A stretch of 8,921 bases of DNA, taken from IMG/VR virus record IMGVR_UViG_2671180636_000006; one strand, 5' to 3'. This DNA comes from a virus. Lineage: Duplodnaviria > Heunggongvirae > Uroviricota > Caudoviricetes. The translations under genes and the position numbers were made by a program. Positions 1 to 8,921 of the stretch are shown one piece after another. Under the pieces are notes generated by a model that ran no database searches, was not told the origin of the DNA, and saw nothing but the letters and a program-made list of their open reading frames with translations. Every line of letters starts with the position of its first letter. The first letter of the stretch is position 1.

Positions 1-33
<33 letters not shown>

Positions 34-67
34 GCGAGATTTGAGACGAAGGTTGTTATTTGCACTG

Positions 68-713: not shown

Positions 714-989
714 ATGTATCAGATGGAAAAAATATCAACAGGCATTGCCTACGGCACCTCCGCCGGCAGTGCCGGCTACTGGTTTTTGCAGTGGTTGGAT
801 CAGGTCAGTCCATCACAGTGGGCTGCGATTGGTGTGCTGGGAAGTCTGCTTCTGGGGCTTCTGACTTATCTGACGAATCTGTATTTCAAAATAAGAGAAG
901 ATAAGCGTAAGTGGATTTGCCCCTATATTTCTCGCCATCATTACGCAAGGCTGTTGCAGTTGCTATTGGTGGCGGGGCTGTTGCTATAG
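714..989 (+). CDS. S: Class II holin / pinholin, phage 21 S-like, with a C-terminal extension relative to the ~71-aa form as I recall it
   Basis: [69 protein letters not shown]... closely resembles the phage 21 S pinholin as recalled. Two TM segments, dual start Met1/Met4, purine-rich SD (GGGGGCGGGA) before ATG 714. Stop TAG 987-989. Confidence 0.85.
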
Positions 990-1426
990 CATCTGTGTTA
1001 ATCACTGGCCCAGGTGGTAACGATGGTCTGGAAGGTGTCAGCTACATACTATACAAAGATATCATTGGTGTATGGACTGTATGTCACGGACACACCGGAA
1101 AAGACATCATGCTCGGTAAAACGTATACCGAAGCAGAATGCAAAGCCCTCCTGAATAAAGACCTTGCCACTGTCGCCAGACAAATTAACCCGTACATCAA
1201 AGTCGATATACCGGAAACAACGCGCGGCGCTCTTTACTCGTTCGTTTACAACGTGGGCGCTGGCAATTTCAGAACATCGACGCTTCTTCGCAAAATAAAC
1301 CAGGGCGATATCAAAGGCGCATGTGACCAGCTACGTCGCTGGACATATGCTGGCGGTAAGCAATGGAAAGGGCTGATGACCCGTCGTGAGATTGAGCGTG
1401 AAGTCTGTTTGTGGGGGCAGCAATGA
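911..1426 (+). CDS. R: SAR endolysin (phage 21 R-like lysozyme, T4-lysozyme/GH24 type)
   Basis: Translation ...[78 protein letters not shown]...REVCLWGQQ matches phage 21 R / DLP12 RrrD as recalled: Gly/Ala-rich N-terminal signal-anchor-release TM, then an E...D...T catalytic region. The frame opens at GTG 911 directly after TAA 908-910 and has no in-frame ATG upstream of the conserved region, so the start is GTG 911 or TTG 917. Stop TGA 1424-1426. Confidence 0.85.
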
Positions 1427-1752
1427 GCAGAGTCACCGCGATTATCTCCGCTCTGGTTATCTGCATCATCGTCCGCCTGTCATGGGCTGTTAATCATTAC
1501 CGTGATAACGCCATTACCTACAAAGAGCAGCGCGACAAAAACGCAAGAGAACTGAAGCTGGCGAACGCAACCATTACTGACATGCAGCAGNATGCACTCG
1601 ATGCTAAATACACGAAGGAGTTAGCTGATGCGAAAGCTGAAAATGATGCTCTTCGGCGCAAGCTTGATAATGGTGGTCGGGTGCTCGTCAAAGGAAAATG
1701 CCCTGTGCCATCCTCAGCCGAAACCTCCAGCGCCTCCGGCATGGGCAATGAT
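1423..1752 (+). CDS. Rz: Rz i-spanin (inner-membrane spanin subunit), 3' end masked
   Basis: ATG 1423 overlaps the endolysin stop (ATGA). [81 protein letters not shown]... is strongly similar to lambda Rz as recalled: N-terminal TM then a coiled-coil region. Runs into the N mask at 1753; contains one ambiguous base at 1591. Confidence 0.85.
1628..1752 (+). CDS. Rz1: Rz1 o-spanin (outer-membrane lipoprotein) embedded in the +1 frame of Rz, 3' end masked
   Basis: ATG 1628 preceded by AAGGAG at 8-nt spacing. [41 protein letters not shown]... has a signal peptide with lipobox (VVGC) followed by a Pro-rich segment ending PPAWAM, like lambda Rz1. Lies entirely inside Rz in a different frame. Confidence 0.8.
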
Positions 1753-2744
1753 NNNNNNNNNNNNNNNNNNNNNNNNNNNNNNNNNNNNNNNNNNNNNNNN
1801 NNNNNNNNNNNNNNNNNNNNNNNNNNNNNNNNNNNNNNNNNNNNNNNNNNNNNNNNNNNNNNNNNNNNNNNNNNNNNNNNNNNNNNNNNNNNNNNNNNNN
1901 NNNNNNNNNNNNNNNNNNNNNNNNNNNNNNNNNNNNNNNNNNNNNNNNNNNNNNNNNNNNNNNNNNNNNNNNNNNNNNNNNNNNNNNNNNNNNNNNNNNN
2001 NNNNNNNNNNNNNNNNNNNNNNNNNNNNNNNNNNNNNNNNNNNNNNNNNNNNNNNNNNNNNNNNNNNNNNNNNNNNNNNNNNNNNNNNNNNNNNNNNNNN
2101 NNNNNNNNNNNNNNNNNNNNNNNNNNNNNNNNNNNNNNNNNNNNNNNNNNNNNNNNNNNNNNNNNNNNNNNNNNNNNNNNNNNNNNNNNNNNNNNNNNNN
2201 NNNNNNNNNNNNNNNNNNNNNNNNNNNNNNNNNNNNNNNNNNNNNNNNNNNNNNNNNNNNNNNNNNNNNNNNNNNNNNNNNNNTGAGNNNNNNNNNNNNN
2301 NNNNNNNNNNNNNNNNNNNNNNNNNNNNNNNNNNNNNNNNNNNNNNNNNNNNNNNNNNNNNNNNNNNNNNNNNNNNNNNNNNNNNNNNNNNNNNNNNNNN
2401 NNNNNNNNNNNNNNNNNNNNNNNNNNNNNNNNNNNNNNNNNNNNNNNNNNNNNNNNNNNNNNNNNNNNNNNNNNNNNNNNNNNNNNNNNNNNNNNNNNNN
2501 NNNNNNNNNNNNNNNNNNNNNNNNNNNNNNNNNNNNNNNNNNNNNNNNNNNNNNNNNNNNNNNNNNNNNNNNNNNNNNNNNNNNNNNNNNNNNNNNNNNN
2601 NNTTTAGGCTTAAACACCTTACATTTACAAGGTACTCCTGTGGGGGGCCCTGCCACGGAGCGTCGCAGGAGTGAGTGATGAGGAAGAATTAAAGCAACCT
2701 ATTGTGACAGGCAGCGATAACAGTAAATCACAGGAAGCATAATC

Positions 2745-3509
2745 ATGGCAAAACCGGACTGGGAGGCCATCGAATCGGCATACCGGGCCGGAGTCCTTAG
2801 CCTCCGTGATATAGGCGAGAAATACGGCGTTACAGAAGGGGCTATCAGGAAGAGGGCCAAAAAGCTTGGTTGGGCACGCAGTGGCGGTACGCAGGTTTGC
2901 AAAAATGGTACGCAAAAAAGGAAAGTGCGTACCAGCAGAAAGCCTGCCATTACTGGCCTTACACAAAAAAGTACGCAACTAAAAACAGAATCTACACCGG
3001 ATACGAAACCGATACGCGGAATGCGTACCGATCCCCCGACTAACCCATTCCAACCCGGTAACCAGCAGGCATTAAAACACGGTGGTTATGCCCGTCGCCT
3101 TCTGCTCAAAGATGAGGTGATAGAGGACGCTAAAGCGTTGACGCTCGAGGACGAATTATTTCGCCTTCGTGCTAACAACCTTGTCGCTGCAGAGAATATT
3201 GGTCGGTGGTTGGTGTCGCTGGAAGATGCTAATGGGGACCAGGAAAGGAAGATGCTGATTGAAAATATCAGCGCCGCCGAGAAAGCAATGATGCGCAATA
3301 CAGTTCGTATTGAGTCCATCGTTGGCACGCTTGCGACGGTAGGAAAAATATTTGCTGATACAGCCTACCGCAAGGCCGCCACTGATAAGGTGTCTCTGGA
3401 GGCTGATCGTCTTCGCCGTGATGCAGGTATTGATGATGGCAATGGAGAGCGTGACCTCAATGACTTCTACTCTGACATCCAAACCGACGCTGAATCCGGC
3501 TTTACGTAG
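2745..3509 (+). CDS. Terminase small subunit (N-terminal HTH DNA-binding type)
   Basis: Complete 254-aa ORF with SD AGGAAG 7 nt before the ATG. N-terminus MAKPDWEAIESAYRAGVLSLRDIGEKYGVTEGAIRKRAKKLGW is the helix-turn-helix signature recalled from terminase small subunits that precede PBSX-type large terminases in enterobacterial prophages. Position directly upstream of the large terminase. Stop TAG 3507-3509. Confidence 0.75.
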   Translation: MAKPDWEAIESAYRAGVLSLRDIGEKYGVTEGAIRKRAKKLGWARSGGTQVCKNGTQKRKVRTSRKPAITGLTQKSTQLKTESTPDTKPIRGMRTDPPTNPFQPGNQQALKHGGYARRLLLKDEVIEDAKALTLEDELFRLRANNLVAAENIGRWLVSLEDANGDQERKMLIENISAAEKAMMRNTVRIESIVGTLATVGKIFADTAYRKAATDKVSLEADRLRRDAGIDDGNGERDLNDFYSDIQTDAESGFT

Positions 3510-5000
3510 TTTCTGGACTATGCGGGCACGTAACAAAGTGCTTTATGGTGGTCGGTCATCGTCAAAATCATGGGATGCCGCTGGCATTGCCATATTTCTG
3601 TCGAATAAATACACCCTGCGTTTTTGTTGTGCCCGTCAGATCCAGAATAAAATCGAAGAGTCGGTGTATACCCTGCTCAAAATTCAGATAGACAGGTTTG
3701 GTCTGCGGCACCGTTTCCGTATTCTGAACAACAAAATCATTAACCGGGTTACTGGCTCGGAATTTGTTTTTTATGGATTANNNNNNNNNNNNNNNNNNNN
3801 NNNNNNNNNNNNNNNNNNNNNNNNNNNNNNNNNNNNNNNNNNNNNNNNNNNNNNNNNNNNNNNNNNNNNNNNNNNNNNNNNNNNNNNNNNNNNNNNNNNN
3901 NNNNNNNNNNNNNNNNNNNNNNNNNNNNNNNNNNNNNNNNNNNNNNNNNNNNNNNNNNNNNNNNNNNNNNNNNNNNNNNNNNNNNNNNNNNNNNNNNNNN
4001 NNNNNNNNNNNNNNNNNNNNNNNNNNNNNNNNNNNNNNNNNNNNNNNNNNNNNNNNNNNNNNNNNNNNNNNNNNNNNNNNNNNNNNTAAGGTTATCGACG
4101 CGGCGCGACGCCGTGATCCGGATGGTTTTAAACATGTGTATGNNNNNNNNNNNNNNNNNNNNNNNNNNNNNNNNNNNNNNNNNNNNNNNNNNNNNNNNNN
4201 NNNNNNNNNNNNNNNNNNNNNNNNNNNNNNNNNNNNNNNNNNNNNNNNNNNNNNNNNNNNNNNNNNNNNNNNNNNNNNNNNNNNNNNNNNNNNNNNNNNN
4301 NNNNNNNNNNNNNNNNNNNNNNNNNNNNNNNNNNNNNNNNNNNNNNNNNNNNNNNNNNNNNNNNNNNNNNNNNNNNNNNNNNNNNNNNNNNNNNNNNNNN
4401 NNNNNNNNNNNNNNNNNNNNNNNNNNNNNNNNNNNNNNNNNNNNNNNNNNNNNNNNNNNNNNNNNNNNNNNNNNNNNNNNNNNNNNNNNNNNNNNNNNNN
4501 NNNNNNNNNNNNNNNNNNNNNNNNNNNNNNNNNNNNNNNNNNNNNNNNNNNNNNNNNNNNNNNNNNNNNNNNNNNNNNNNNNNNNNNNNNNNNNNNNNNN
4601 NNNNNNNNNNNNNNNNNNNNNNNNNNNNNNNNNNNNNNNNNNNNNNNNNNNNNNNNNNNNNNNNNNNNNNNNNNNNNNNNNNNNNNNNNNNNNNNNNNNN
4701 NNNNNNNNNNNNNNNNNNNNNNNNNNNNNNNNGTTTAACGCCATTAACAACGGAGAACAGTATCCTGTGGATGAGCTGATCAGCATAGATTCTCGTTGTC
4801 CGTTGCTTGAAAAGCTGAAACTGGAACTGACAACACCTCATCGTGATTTCGACCGTAACGGACGTGTGATGGTCGAAAGTAAAAAAGACCTCGCAAAACG
4901 CGAGATACCGTCACCAAACGTTGCTGATGCATTCATTATGGCCTTCGCGCCAATCGATACATCGCTGGATATCTGGGAACAGCTGGGGAGACAGGCCTGA
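3460..5000 (+). CDS. Terminase large subunit (PBSX/Terminase_3-like ATPase-nuclease), interrupted by two N-masked runs; visible fragments are in three different frames
   Basis: N-terminal fragment MTSTLTSKPTLNPALRSFWTMRARNKVLYGGRSSSKSWDAAGIAIF... has a Walker-A-like motif (GGRSSSKS). Middle island 4088-4141 reads KVIDAARRRDPDGFKHVY. C-terminal fragment 4733-5000 ends ...NVADAFIMAFAPIDTSLDIWEQLGRQA with stop TGA 4998-5000. Start ATG 3460 (SD GGAGAG upstream) is tentative; ATG 3442 or 3520 are alternatives. Confidence 0.75.
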
Positions 5001-6101
5001 TGGCACGAAACAAACAAGCCCTGCGGCGAACTGTGCAGGCCACAGCTGATGGTTATGAGAATTTTATTGCCCGCGTAGGGATGCAGACACCTAACCAGCA
5101 CTCAGCATCCACCTACCGGGCTAATTTCACCAGTCGTAACCGCATGCTGGTGGAATGGTCCTATCGTTCATCCTAGATCATCGGCGAAGCAGTCGATGCT
5201 ATCCCGGATGATATGACCCGCAAAGGCATTCGCATCACTTCGGAAATTGATGCAAAAGATCGTGGCATTCTCGAATCACAACTGGATGAGTTGCAAATCT
5301 GGGATGCGCTGAATGACGTGCTGAAATGGTCGCGCCTCTACGGCGGCGCGGTGGGTTTCATCATGATTGAGGGGTAGGCACCAATGACCCCGCTGCGACC
5401 CGAAACCATCGGTAAGGGCAAGTTTAAGGGGATTCTCCCGCTCGACCGCTGGATGGTCGACCCGGCACTGACCCGCCGCATTAAAGATATGGGGCCGGAC
5501 CTGGGTAAACCTGAGTTTTACGATGTGGTGACCACAGCAACGGGAATTCCTGCCTGGCGCATTCATCACAGTCGCCTGATTCGCTTTGATGGCGTCACGT
5601 TGCCATTTCAGCAGAAGATGACCGAGAACGAATGGGGAATGTCGGTTGTAGAGCGTATCTGGGATCGTCTTACCGCGTTCGACAGCGCTACTGTCGGCGC
5701 GGCGCAGCTGGTCTACAAGGCGCATTTGCGTACCTACAGCGTGGAGAAGCTACGCGAGCTTATCGCACTTGGTGGTCCTGCGTATGAAGCGTTGCTGAAG
5801 AATATCGACCTGATTCGACAGTTCCAGAGTAATGAAGGCATGACGCTCATGGACTCGCGGGATAAGTTTGAAACCCATCAGTACAGCTTCAGTGGTCTGG
5901 ATGACATCCTTTCGCAGTTTGTAGAACAGATTAGTGGCGCTGTTGGTATCCCACTGGTGCGGTTGTTCGGACAGTCCCCGAAAGGATTTTCTACCGGTGA
6001 TGCAGACCTTGCCAACTATTACGATCGCATCAGTTCGTTGCAGGAGAGGCGTTTACGTCTTCCGGTGCGGCGGATACTGGACATCATGCATCGTTCGGAA
6101 C
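5000..6101 (+). CDS. Portal protein, 3' end masked; ORF is interrupted by two in-frame TAG codons (5174-5176, 5375-5377), so possibly a pseudogene, or the functional start is the ATG at 5384
   Basis: ATG 5000 overlaps the terminase stop (ATGA). The same frame yields MARNKQALRRTVQATADGYENFIARVGMQTPNQ...WSYRSS, then a stop, then IIGEAVDAIPDDMTRKGIRITSEID...GFIMIEG, then a stop, then APMTPLRPETIGKGKFKGILPLDRWMVDP...RRILDIMHRSE. Protein-like throughout, and in the position expected for a portal between terminase and the Mu-F-like gene. Family assignment is by gene order and general resemblance, not a verified alignment. Confidence 0.7.
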
Positions 6102-6771
6102 NNNNNNNNNNNNNNNNNNNNNNNNNNNNNNNNNNNNNNNNNNNNNNNNNNNNNNNNNNNNNNNNNNNNNNNNNNNNNNNNNNNNNNNNNNNNNNNNNNN
6201 NNNNNNNNNNNNNNNNNNNNNNNNNNNNNNNNNNNNNNNNNNNNNNNNNNNNNNNNNNNNNNNNNNNNNNNNNNNNNNNNNNNNNNNNNNNNNNNNNNNN
6301 NNNNNNNNNNNNNNNNNNNNNNNNNNNNNNNNNNNNNNNNNNNNNNNNNNNNNNNNNNNNNNNNNNNNNNNNNNNNNNNNNNNNNNNNNNNNNNNNNNNN
6401 NNNNNNNNNNNNNNNNNNNNNNNNNNNNNNNNNNNNNNNNNNNNNNNNNNNNNNNNNNNNNNNNNNNNNNNNNNNNNNNNNNNNNNNNNNNNNNNNNNNN
6501 NNNNNNNNNNNNNNNNNNNNNNNNNNNNNNNNNNNNNNNNNNNNNNNNNNNNNNNNNNNNNNNNNNNNNNNNNNNNNNNNNNNNNNNNNNNNNNNNNNNN
6601 NNNNNNNNNNNNNNNNNNNNNNNNNNNNNNNNNNNNNNNNNNNNNNNNNNNNNNNNNNNNNNNNNNNNNNNNNNNNNNNNNNNNNNNNNNNNNNNNNNNN
6701 NNNNNNNNNNNNNNNNNNNNNNNNNNNNNNNNNNNNNNNNNNNNNNNNNNNNNNNNNNNNNNNNNNNNNNN

Positions 6772-7256
6772 AAAGCGCTCCTGTGGGCCAGGTGATGCAA
6801 TCCATCATCGCCGAACAGGTCAAGTACATCAAATCTCTGCCTCTCGAGGCCGCAGACAGGGTGTANNNNNNNNNNNNNNNNNNNNNNNNNNNNNNNNNNN
6901 NNNNNNNNNNNNNNNNNNNNNNNNNNNNNNNNNNNNNNNNNNNNNNNNNNNNNNNNNNNNNNNNNNNNNNNNNNNNNNNNNNNNNNNNNNNNNNNNNNNN
7001 NNNNNNNNNNNNNNNNNNNNNNNNNNNNNNNNNNNNNNNNNNNNNNNNNNNNNNNNNNNNNNNNNNNNNNNNNNNNNNNNNNNNNNNNNNNNNNNNNNNN
7101 NNNNNNNNNNNNNNNNNNNNNNNNNNNNNNNNNNNNNNNNNNNNNNNNNNNNNNNNNGACGGCATGACCGGCCACGCGGGCGAGCTGCCAAACTGCCGCT
7201 GCTATAAAGAGATCGTGTTTGTTCGCGTTCCATTCGCAATGAAAAGGGCAGCATAA
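6772..7256 (+). CDS. Head morphogenesis protein, Mu F-like / SPP1 gp7 family; C-terminal part only, largely masked
   Basis: Frame-0 fragments SAPVGQVMQSIIAEQVKYIKSLPLEAADRV (6774-6863) and DGMTGHAGELPNCRCYKEIVFVRVPFAMKRAA (7158-7253) with stop TAA 7254-7256. The H..ELPNCRCY segment resembles the conserved C-terminal NCRC motif of Mu F-like head morphogenesis proteins as recalled. Both fragments are in the same frame given the exact N-run length. Confidence 0.6.
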
Positions 7257-7304
7257 CCCATNNNNNNNNNNNNNNNNNNNNNNNNNNNNNNNNNNNNNNN
7301 NNNN

Positions 7305-8513
7305 TTTGAGACCAGGCTCGGGGAAACCCGATACCGCCTGGCTGACGGCTCGTTGCTGTGCAAAGACGTGCCGATAGGACGAACAGGTAAGCAGCTCTAT
7401 GGTGCTGATGACCTGCCAAAACTGAAACCCGATAAGTTCGGTGAAATAGTCGTCACGCGTTCTCCTGAGCAGGTATTCCATCCGGCCACGCTTGCCTCAT
7501 TCGAAGGGATGAGCATCACGATCCTGCATCCTGAAGATGAAAACGGGAATGTGCGGCTGGTAAATCCCGAGAACTGGAAAGAGCTTGCTGTCGGGCACCT
7601 CCAGAATGTCCGGCGCGGGACGGGTGAGCAGTCTGATTTGATGCTGGCTGACCTTATCGTCAAAGACGAAAGCGCCATTCAGCTTATCGAAGATGGCCTG
7701 CGCGAAGTGTCGTGCGGCTATGACGCGGAGTACGAGCAGACCGAGCCAGGTAAAGCCGAGCAGGTCGATATTACCGGAAACCATGTGGCTCTTGTCCCTA
7801 AAGGCAGAGCCGGAAATCGTTGTGCAATTGGAGACAGAGACACAATGGCAAATCAAAAGAAAAACTGGTGGAACCGCATGCGTGCGGCCATCAAGACAGG
7901 AGATGCCGACACCATGAACGAACTGGTGGAGTCGGCTCCCGCATCGGTTACAGGAGATGAGGGGGATTTGCCGCAGGGCGTTAATCTCAACATCAACCTG
8001 TCCCCGCAGCAACCACTACCGGACAAAGCACCAGAGATGGGCGGAGATCCAACCGGCGACAGTGATGATGACCTCAAAACATTACTGAAAGCCCTGCTGG
8101 CTAAGCTGGAAAGAAATGCCACGGGCGATAACGATAATAAGCCTGACGATAATCCGACCGGTGACGGCGAGGACGATGAAGAGGAAACCACGATTACTGG
8201 TGACTCAGCCTGGCGTGCCGAAGTTATCGTTCCGGGTATCGATCTGAGCCGTAAGATGAAACCGACCGCGTTCAAACGCGAGGTTCTGGCTTCTGCTGAC
8301 AAAACGCTGGTTCGCCAGATAGTCGGTGATGCGGATATCCGCAAATTACCGAAACAATCGGTCGACATGGCGTTTAATGCCGTGTCTGAGGTTGCCAAAG
8401 GGCGAAACACCCGCGCCACCACCGGCGATGCACAGCGCCTAAACATGGGCATGACCAGTATCGCTTCCCTGAACAAACAAAACGCTGAATTCTGGGCAAA
8501 CCGTAAAGGGTAA
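7305..8513 (+). CDS. Head assembly protein, probable scaffold (possibly scaffold/protease-type) with a conserved N-terminal domain and an acidic repeat-containing C-terminal half; true start is in the masked run upstream
   Basis: Open frame from the first unmasked base (FETRLGETRYRLADGSLLCKDVPIGRTGKQ...) to TAA 8511-8513. The 7353 start in the ORF track is a TTG and the frame is already open before it. Position between the Mu-F-like gene and a capsid-associated gene. Acidic, low-complexity C-terminal half (GDSDDDLKTLLKALLAKLERNATGDNDNKPDDNPTGDGEDDEEE) is typical of scaffolds. Confidence 0.55.
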   Translation, partial: FETRLGETRYRLADGSLLCKDVPIGRTGKQLYGADDLPKLKPDKFGEIVVTRSPEQVFHPATLASFEGMSITILHPEDENGNVRLVNPENWKELAVGHLQNVRRGTGEQSDLMLADLIVKDESAIQLIEDGLREVSCGYDAEYEQTEPGKAEQVDITGNHVALVPKGRAGNRCAIGDRDTMANQKKNWWNRMRAAIKTGDADTMNELVESAPASVTGDEGDLPQGVNLNINLSPQQPLPDKAPEMGGDPTGDSDDDLKTLLKALLAKLERNATGDNDNKPDDNPTGDGEDDEEETTITGDSAWRAEVIVPGIDLSRKMKPTAFKREVLASADKTLVRQIVGDADIRKLPKQSVDMAFNAVSEVAKGRNTRATTGDAQRLNMGMTSIASLNKQNAEFWANRKG

Positions 8514-8516
8514 AAA

Positions 8517-8921
8517 ATGAATAATGTATTTCTGTACCGGATGCCTGTTGGCATTGCCGGGGCTGTCTCTCGCCCGCAGGACTTAACCGTCGAACCGGTG
8601 GTCCTTAAATCCGATAACGCCTTCGCTGCCTATGGCCTGGCTGGTAAATACGATGATGACGGTTTTTTCGTGCCGCTGGCAGATGGTGATACCGCAGACA
8701 AGGTGAAGGGGATCTACGTGCGCCCTTATCCGACCACGTCGCAGCCGGACATGGTTCGCCAGGTGGGAACAGGCAAGAACTTCCCGGGCGACGCCATGAA
8801 GCGTGGCTACGTGACCGTTAATCTCGGTTCTGATTTTGATGCCAGCACTATCAAAAAAGGCGATCCGGTATACGTTGTCGTCTCCACTGATGAATCCATC
8901 AAAGTGCCGCTGGGTGGATTC
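8517..8921 (+). CDS. Phage capsid-associated structural protein (head decoration-like or capsid protein), N-terminal 135 codons; continues past the window end
   Basis: ATG 8517 preceded by AAGGG at 6-nt spacing, 4 bp after the scaffold stop. Open to the window end: MNNVFLYRMPVGIAGAVSRPQDLTVEPVVLKSDNAFAAYGLAGKYDDDGFFVPLADGDTADKVKGIYVRPYP... Product inferred mainly from position in the head module. Confidence 0.5.
   Translation, partial: MNNVFLYRMPVGIAGAVSRPQDLTVEPVVLKSDNAFAAYGLAGKYDDDGFFVPLADGDTADKVKGIYVRPYPTTSQPDMVRQVGTGKNFPGDAMKRGYVTVNLGSDFDASTIKKGDPVYVVVSTDESIKVPLGGF

What the first reader, a model, noticed from the sequence alone, without database searches (positions are those of the whole stretch)
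3460..5000. Terminase large subunit fragments lie in three different reading frames
The N-terminal fragment (Walker A, 3460-3780) is in frame 1; the island 4088-4141 (KVIDAARRRDPDGFKHVY) is protein-like only in frame 2; the C-terminal fragment (4733-5000) is in frame 3. The first masked run is 306 nt (a multiple of 3) and the second is 590 nt, so if masking is 1:1 the gene needs two +1 shifts. Combined with the portal stops this would fit a degraded, non-inducible prophage. It could equally mean the masked runs do not preserve length or the island is misassigned.
Basis: seen in the sequence. Interest (0 to 1): 0.45.

Follow-up and report, generated by a model that had tools for sequence, protein, structure and literature searches.

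The report
Terminase frame shifts are N-gap artefacts
The three reading frames of the phage large-terminase gene arise only because the runs of N in this draft sequence are the wrong length; in gap-free genomes identical at every readable base downstream of position 1591 (Shigella sonnei 53G and others) the gene is one ordinary, intact 467-codon reading frame.

Summary
The arithmetic of the finding is right. In window coordinates the three terL fragments sit in frames 1, 2 and 3.

The cause is the N runs, not the gene. Every readable base from 1592 to 8921 is 100% identical to gap-free records: Shigella sonnei 53G (HE616528.1), two other NCBI assemblies and, over the parts they cover, two IMG/VR contigs. 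In those records the two terL gaps are 257 and 502 nt, not 306 and 590. All eight N runs in the window have the wrong length (by -15 to +141 nt). No indel occurs in the 4,579 readable bases.

With the true lengths, the fragments are codons 1-107, 194-211 and 380-467 of one 1,404-nt ORF. This is a PBSX-family large terminase (TIGR01547, 142.5 bits) whose closest solved relative is phage Sf6 gp2 (E 9e-79). The exact protein occurs on at least 1,000 public contigs.

The prophage is still a dead remnant, but for other reasons:
- IS2 sits in the end of the holin gene.
- The portal gene has two amber codons.
- IS1 truncates the prophage after the cement-protein gene.

There is no real frameshift and nothing novel. 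I did not find the window's source record; it looks like a scaffolded short-read S. sonnei draft.

The parts
3460..3780 (+). terL N-terminal fragment, codons 1-107 (Walker A GGRSSSKS at 3547-3570)
   Evidence: Lies in a readable segment (2603-3780) that matches S. sonnei 53G (L031) exactly and starts at the terL start, L031 4598. Falls within the PF04466 match at aa 24-213. Aligns to Sf6 gp2 GGRGSGKS.
3781..4086 (.). N run of 306 that stands for 257 real bases (49 too long, so an apparent +1 shift)
   Evidence: Gap length is 257 in L001, L005, L006, L028, L029, L030, L031 and L034. In L002 the same gap is 1,593 nt because of an IS2 insertion.
4087..4142 (+). terL island, codons 194-211 (KVIDAARRRDPDGFKHVY) plus one flanking base on each side; end of the ATPase domain
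   Evidence: Exact 56-nt match. The K codon is at L031 5177, which is frame 0 and codon 194 of terL. Aligns to Sf6 gp2 residues about 206-223.
4143..4732 (.). N run of 590 that stands for 502 real bases (88 too long, so a second apparent +1 shift)
   Evidence: Gap length is 502 in L001, L002, L005, L006, L028-L031, L033 and L035.
4733..5000 (+). terL C-terminal fragment, codons 380-467 plus the TGA stop (end of the RNase-H-like nuclease domain)
   Evidence: Exact match. The F codon is at L031 5735, frame 0 and codon 380; the stop is codon 468. Matches the Sf6 gp2 nuclease-domain chains 8dkr and 5c10.
2745..3509 (+). Presumed small-terminase gene (254 aa, no Pfam family), overlapping terL by 50 nt
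   Evidence: ORF list. Annotated as a hypothetical protein immediately upstream of terL in relatives, and as terminase small subunit in Klebsiella phages GZ7 and ST405-OXA48phi1.2. No Pfam match.
5000..6101 (+). Portal gene (DUF1073 / Phage_portal_3) with two real in-frame amber codons at 5174-5176 and 5375-5377
   Evidence: G>A at 5175 and C>T at 5375 relative to E. coli relatives. Not present in any of the E. coli complete genomes listed or inspected: none of the 382 records that match this portal stretch reaches 100% identity, and the best three are 99.7%. Present in S. sonnei records, with the resulting 58-aa fragment listed in 2,737 blocks of the collection.

Best explanation
The window comes from a gapped, scaffold-like draft of the Shigella sonnei lineage. 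Its runs of N are placeholders whose lengths do not equal the missing sequence. The terL gene underneath is an ordinary intact PBSX-family (Sf6 gp2-like) large terminase of 467 codons: an N-terminal packaging ATPase and a C-terminal RNase-H-like nuclease. The apparent +1/+1 frame changes arise because 306 N replace 257 nt and 590 N replace 502 nt.

Shown: the length mismatch of every N run; the single ORF in gap-free sequences that are identical at all readable bases downstream of 1591; the family membership.

Inferred: the window's own strain has the same sequence under the Ns; the Ns are scaffolder gap-size estimates rather than masks added later.

The gene sits in a dead prophage remnant, so it is intact but almost certainly not used to make phage.
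For: 1. All seven readable segments from 1592 to 8921 (4,579 nt) occur as exact strings in S. sonnei 53G HE616528.1 (L031) and in L028 and L029. IMG/VR contigs L005 and L006 match at 100% over the parts they cover. None of these records contains an N. HE616528.1 is identified as S. sonnei 53G in PMC5447701.
2. True versus window gap lengths are 16/1, 461/531, 314/315, 257/306, 502/590, 529/670, 277/292 and 10/43. Every N run is wrong, and no indel lies outside an N run.
3. terL is 1,404 nt with a single stop at codon 468 in L001, L005, L006, L028-L032 and L035. The window fragments map to codons 1, 194 and 380, all in frame 0.
4. The exact 467-aa protein is on at least 1,000 contigs and is named 'PBSX family phage terminase large subunit [Shigella sonnei]'.
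5. All 17 E. coli relatives listed at 98.6-98.8% identity (H4-H20) show the same 137-nt excess of the window over the record. The gene length is therefore constant across alleles.
6. TIGR01547 scores 142.5 bits against a cut-off of 105; PF04466 scores 131.5 against 23.2; Sf6 gp2 (4idh) gives E 9.4e-79 over residues 10-449.
7. Other signs of a poor draft: a single N replaces 16 nt; there is an IS2 junction with 1,336 nt missing and no N; the lysis region mixes alleles of two paralogous cassettes. Related Sanger drafts contain N runs of 21 and 1.
Against: The window's own source record was not found, so the bases under its N runs are inferred from identical relatives, not read. Three assemblies of the lineage (L034, L036, L037) have terL lengths of 1,403, 1,403 and 1,402 nt. 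They also fail exact matching in several other segments, which looks like error-prone long-read assembly. The window's left 1.6 kb differs from 53G at several sites, so the strain or assembly is not literally 53G.
Confidence: 0.96

Rival explanations
1. The N runs are 1:1 masks and this strain's terL really carries two frame-changing insertions (+49 and +88 nt). The gene would then be a doubly frameshifted pseudogene in a decaying prophage.
For: The prophage is degraded elsewhere: the portal gene has amber codons, and complete genomes of the lineage carry IS2 in the holin gene and an IS1 truncation. A relative, FDAARGOS_943, has an IS2 inside terL, so terL can be hit.
Against: It would require length changes at all eight masked places and none in 4,579 readable bases that are 100% identical to 53G. 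It would also require insertions of 141, 15 and 33 nt in the portal/Mu-F region and a 15-nt deletion under a single N. No record among the relatives examined has such a terL length.
Confidence: 0.02
2. The Ns are not assembly gaps in a public record. They are masks inserted downstream by whoever prepared the window, with run lengths not tied to the hidden sequence. terL is intact under this reading too.
For: The description of the related-loci tool says that a few stretches of its genome-contig collection are masked and read as runs of N. A 4-nt island (tgag, 2284-2287) and a 56-nt island are odd for contigs. The source record could not be found by exact protein or DNA look-ups.
Against: Related Sanger S. 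sonnei drafts (CXDT01000176.1) contain the same kind of short and single-N runs. They also share the window's peculiar IS2 junction. The chimeric lysis region points to a short-read draft. This rival changes only the origin of the Ns, not the verdict on terL.
Confidence: 0.25
3. The island 4087-4142 is not part of terL (misassigned), so only one frame change is at issue.
For: The island is short (56 nt), and frame 3 is also open across it.
Against: The 56 nt match terL codons 194-211 exactly in all relatives, at the expected distance from both flanking fragments. They also align to the end of the ATPase domain of Sf6 gp2.
Confidence: 0

Closest known systems
Large terminase gp2 of Shigella phage Sf6 (PDB 4idh, 4iee, 4ife; nuclease domain 5c10, 5c12)
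   Same: Alignable over residues 10-449 with E 9.4e-79. Same two-domain layout: N-terminal ATPase with a Walker A, and a C-terminal RNase-H-like nuclease. The island maps to the end of the ATPase domain.
   Different: A distinct protein of lower identity (the alignment shows many substitutions). The Walker A reads GGRSSSKS rather than GGRGSGKS. It is encoded in a prophage remnant, not a live phage.
PBSX-family phage terminase large subunit (NCBIfam TIGR01547; Pfam Terminase_3 PF04466)
   Same: Scores above both curated cut-offs. Annotated as such in E. coli VL40 and S. sonnei records.
   Different: Nothing of note. The C-terminal Pfam model PF17288 scores just below its cut-off (20.8 against 26.7 bits).
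The intact version of this prophage in E. coli VL40 (NZ_CM177011.1, 1630324-1641984)
   Same: 99.7-100% nucleotide identity over the readable segments from 2603 to 8921 (98.1% over 1592-1752), with the same gene order: holin, rrrD, Rz, dedA, terS, terL, portal, Mu-F, DUF2213, cement protein. terL differs by 2 nt and 1 aa, R157G.
   Different: VL40 has an uninterrupted portal gene and continues into the DUF2184 capsid gene. The S. sonnei copy has two portal amber codons, IS2 in the holin gene, and IS1 followed by chromosomal genes after the cement-protein gene.

Membership tests
PBSX-family large terminase (TIGR01547 / Pfam Terminase_3) | Whole-protein score above the curated NCBIfam equivalog cut-off | tested here: met
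   TIGR01547 scores 142.5 bits against a cut-off of 105.05, over residues 25-425. This was tested on the gap-free S. sonnei protein, which is identical to the window wherever the window is readable.
PBSX-family large terminase (TIGR01547 / Pfam Terminase_3) | N-terminal ATPase domain with Walker A | tested here: met
   PF04466 scores 131.5 bits against a cut-off of 23.2, over residues 24-213. GGRSSSKS at aa 30-37 aligns with Sf6 gp2 GGRGSGKS. This part is readable in the window itself (3547-3570).
PBSX-family large terminase (TIGR01547 / Pfam Terminase_3) | C-terminal RNase-H-like nuclease domain | tested here: met
   Pfam PF17288 alone is below its cut-off (20.8 against 26.7 bits). However, residues 213-453 match the solved large-terminase chain 8dkr_B, a 255-residue chain aligned over its residues 1-246, at E 1.3e-66. 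Residues 212-449 match the Sf6 gp2 nuclease-domain chain 5c10 at E 1.9e-24.
PBSX-family large terminase (TIGR01547 / Pfam Terminase_3) | One continuous reading frame of about 460-500 codons | tested here: met
   terL is 1,404 nt with a single terminal stop in L001, L005, L006, L028-L032 and L035. In the window itself 759 of the 1,404 nt are hidden by N, so this can only be tested through identical relatives.
Frameshifted pseudogene | A frame break located in read bases (an indel relative to intact homologues) | tested here: not met
   There are zero indels in the 645 readable terL bases and in all 4,579 readable bases from 1592 to 8921. Both frame changes coincide with N runs whose lengths are demonstrably wrong.
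Programmed ribosomal frameshift / recoded gene | Homologues also need a frame change at a conserved slippery site | tested here: not met
   All gap-free, high-quality homologues are single ORFs.

The most novel reading that the evidence does not exclude
An intact terS-terL pair is kept in an otherwise wrecked prophage remnant across thousands of S. sonnei genomes because it has been co-opted, for example to package satellite or host DNA or to interfere with incoming phages, rather than simply not having decayed yet. The data do not exclude this. They give no positive support either: S. sonnei is a young clonal lineage (own knowledge, Holt et al. 2012), and terL differs from a live E. coli prophage copy by only 2 nt, so there is no power to detect selection.
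Probability: 0.03. Interest if true: 0.4.

Novelty: not a real feature. Interest (0 to 1): 0.04.

Why it matters
It matters mainly as a caution. In this window, and probably in others from the same kind of source, N-run lengths cannot be used for frame bookkeeping. Every one of the eight runs is off, by -15 to +141 nt. Biologically the gene is a routine, already annotated PBSX/Sf6-gp2-type large terminase in a known defective prophage of Shigella sonnei. Nothing new follows from it.

Tried and rejected
1. I looked for the window's own record and did not find it.
- An exact 35-mer carrying the portal amber codon had no hit in genome contigs. It had 4 hits in viral contigs, none with Ns and none identical to the window's left end.
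- The odd IS2-junction 39-mer had no hit in viral contigs.
- Exact look-ups of the window's lysozyme ORF with either start codon found nothing on record.
- The holin-fusion ORF 714-989 led to two Sanger drafts, CXDT01000176.1 and CXBY01000351.1. They share the junction but end at window position 1181 and differ at 1 and 3 sites respectively. They are close relatives, not the source.

2. Searches of complete E. coli genomes gave relatives at up to 99.7% identity. None carried the portal stops, because Shigella is not in that collection.

3. The phage collection gave only 83-98% partial matches over parts of the query.

4. ARAGORN found no tRNA in 1-700. The first 34 nt are only the 3' end of a tRNA gene that lies upstream in relatives.

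5. I tested whether the tgag island (2284-2287) fits a 1:1 layout. It fits from the right to within 1 nt (315 N for 314 nt) but not from the left (531 N for 461 nt).

6. I considered and rejected programmed frameshifting and a misassigned island; see the rival explanations and the membership test.

7. I did not use structure prediction, the large protein searches or the metagenome scan. The question was already settled by exact DNA identity.

Full report
**Observation.** The window carries eight N runs: 1, 531, 315, 306, 590, 670, 292 and 43 nt.
- 3460-3780 is exactly 107 codons in frame 1, starting at an ATG and including GGRSSSKS.
- 4088-4141 reads KVIDAARRRDPDGFKHVY in frame 2. Frame 1 has three stops there; frame 3 is also open.
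- 4734-5000 reads in frame 3 to a TGA.

With N runs of 306 and 590 nt taken at face value, two +1 shifts are needed.

**What the N runs hide.**
- Megablast against complete E. coli genomes found 454 records. The best are at 99.7% identity, and in every full-length hit listed, apart from H1 with its IS2 insertion, the window span is 137 nt longer than the record span.
- Segment-by-segment alignment to E. coli VL40 (L001) and FDAARGOS_943 (L002) showed no indel in any readable segment from 1592 onward, but a length discrepancy at every N run.
- A 35-mer carrying the window-specific portal amber codon then led to IMG/VR contigs.
- The 58-aa portal fragment led to NCBI assemblies, including the complete genome HE616528.1. 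PMC5447701 lists that accession as Shigella sonnei 53G.
- L028, L029 and L031 (53G) contain all seven readable segments from 1592 to 8921 (4,579 nt) as exact strings. L005 and L006 match at 100% over what they cover. None has an N.

Placing tgag at the one of its three occurrences that fits a 1:1 layout from the right, the true lengths against the window's N runs are as follows:

| N run in window | True length (nt) | Difference |
|---|---|---|
| 1 | 16 | -15 |
| 531 | 461 | +70 |
| 315 | 314 | +1 |
| 306 | 257 | +49 |
| 590 | 502 | +88 |
| 670 | 529 | +141 |
| 292 | 277 | +15 |
| 43 | 10 | +33 |

All length discrepancies sit at N runs and none in the roughly 62% of this stretch that is readable. 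The N runs themselves are therefore the cause.

**terL itself.** In L001, L005, L006, L028-L032 and L035 the gene is 1,404 nt with a single stop at codon 468. The window's fragments begin at codons 1, 194 and 380, all in frame 0:
- 107 codons, then 257+1 nt (86 codons);
- 18 codons, then 1+502+1 nt (168 codons);
- 88 codons and the stop.

The S. sonnei allele differs from the VL40 allele by 2 nt (one change, R157G). The exact 467-aa protein is on at least 1,000 contigs and is named PBSX family phage terminase large subunit [Shigella sonnei].

Three assemblies (L034, L036, L037) have terL lengths of 1,403, 1,403 and 1,402 nt. They also fail exact matching in several other segments, as error-prone assemblies do.

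**Family and mechanism.** The protein passes TIGR01547 (142.5 bits, cut-off 105.05) and Pfam Terminase_3 (131.5 bits, cut-off 23.2; residues 24-213). Its closest solved relative is the large terminase gp2 of Shigella phage Sf6 (4idh, E 9.4e-79, residues 10-449). The C-terminal half matches nuclease-domain chains (8dkr E 1.3e-66; 5c10 E 1.9e-24).

From established knowledge of this family, the protein would act with the upstream small subunit (2745-3509, which overlaps terL by 50 nt). It would cut concatemeric DNA and pump it through the portal.

**Context.**
- The portal gene has two real amber codons, at 5174-5176 (TGG>TAG) and 5375-5377 (CAG>TAG). They are absent from the E. coli relatives examined but present throughout the S. 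sonnei records examined.
- In complete S. sonnei genomes an IS2 sits in the 3' end of the holin gene, with the target duplication GTAAG seen at the same site in L013 and L017.
- The locus ends in IS1 right after the cement-protein gene and is followed by chromosomal lactonase and LysR genes. The DUF2184 capsid gene that follows in VL40 is absent.

So terL is intact but stranded in a remnant.

**Nature of the window.** Several features point to a scaffolded short-read draft rather than a clean sequence.
- A single N stands for 16 nt.
- At 912-935 only the first 20 nt of IS2 are present. The sequence then jumps to 25 nt beyond the insertion site, so 1,336 nt are missing with no N. This junction is on record only in two Sanger-series drafts, CXDT01000176.1 and CXBY01000351.1. 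The first of these contains N runs of 21 and 1.
- Positions 936-1590 mix alleles of the 53G copy (1050, 1474) with alleles of another lysis cassette (1113, 1114, 1147, 1307, 1334).

Accessions of the CXB* series are attributed to Holt et al. 2012 S. sonnei isolates in PMC5447701. I could not find the window's own record. Whether the Ns are gap-size estimates in a public scaffold (my preferred reading) or were inserted later remains open. It does not affect the verdict on terL.

**Verdict.** The frame pattern is real in the coordinates but is an artefact of N-run lengths. The gene is a known, intact PBSX/Sf6-gp2-type large terminase in a known defective S. sonnei prophage. It is not a real feature, and interest is very low.

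Noticed in passing
window 912-935 (context 880-980): The window keeps the first 20 nt of an IS2 end (TGGATTTGCCCCTATATTTC). It then jumps to 25 nt beyond the IS2 insertion site seen in S. sonnei 53G and in IMG/VR contigs L013 and L017. 1,336 nt are missing and there is no N. This removes the holin stop codon and the lysozyme start codon and creates a 91-aa fusion ORF (714-989). The same junction is on record only in two Sanger drafts, CXDT01000176.1 and CXBY01000351.1, both of which end at window position 1181. It is either a gap mis-closure or a real deletion in a second copy of the cassette.
   Followed up: partly
window 5174-5176 and 5375-5377: The DUF1073/Phage_portal_3 portal gene has two in-frame amber codons, caused by G>A at 5175 and C>T at 5375. 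None of the 382 complete E. coli genomes that match this portal stretch reaches 100% identity (best 99.7%), and the two relatives inspected lack both changes. Both are present in all S. sonnei records examined, and the 58-aa fragment is listed in 2,737 blocks of the collection. These are real nonsense mutations, not artefacts.
   Followed up: yes
window 936-1590: The lysozyme/Rz region mixes diagnostic alleles. Positions 1050 and 1474 match the 53G copy. Positions 1113, 1114, 1147, 1307 and 1334 match a different lysis cassette (the first three as in CXDT01000176.1, all five as in E. coli relatives). This suggests either a collapsed or chimeric assembly of two paralogous prophage cassettes, or gene conversion.
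   Followed up: partly
window 1591: A single N in the Rz (lysis protein) gene replaces 16 real bases (CGCCAGCGTGATGCTG in 53G). The frame is preserved only by coincidence (1 and 16 are both 1 mod 3).
   Followed up: yes
window 1753-2602 (N runs with a 4-nt island tgag at 2284-2287): In relatives this hidden stretch holds the end of the Rz gene and a DedA/VTT-family membrane-protein gene on the minus strand. That gene is a moron-like insert between the lysis cassette and terS. The right-hand run (315 N) is nearly true to length (314 nt); the left-hand run (531 N) is 70 too long.
   Followed up: partly
window 6102-7304: The three N runs in the portal/Mu-F/DUF2213 region are too long by 141, 15 and 33 nt. 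All three are multiples of 3, so the fragments appear frame-consistent.
   Followed up: yes
window 3460-3509: terS (2745-3509) and the annotated terL start (3460) overlap by 50 nt in different frames. A second in-frame ATG at 3520 (codon 21) lies just past the terS stop, and the Pfam match begins only at residue 24. The true terL start is therefore uncertain.
   Followed up: no
L002 5358-8097 (E. coli FDAARGOS_943): In this E. coli relative terL is split by an IS2 insertion and the Mu-F gene has an internal stop. Independent decay of the same prophage type has therefore occurred in another lineage.
   Followed up: no
window 1-34: The first 34 nt are the 3' end of a tRNA gene, the last of a four-tRNA cluster upstream of the lysis genes in relatives. 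ARAGORN calls nothing because the gene is cut by the window edge.
   Followed up: partly
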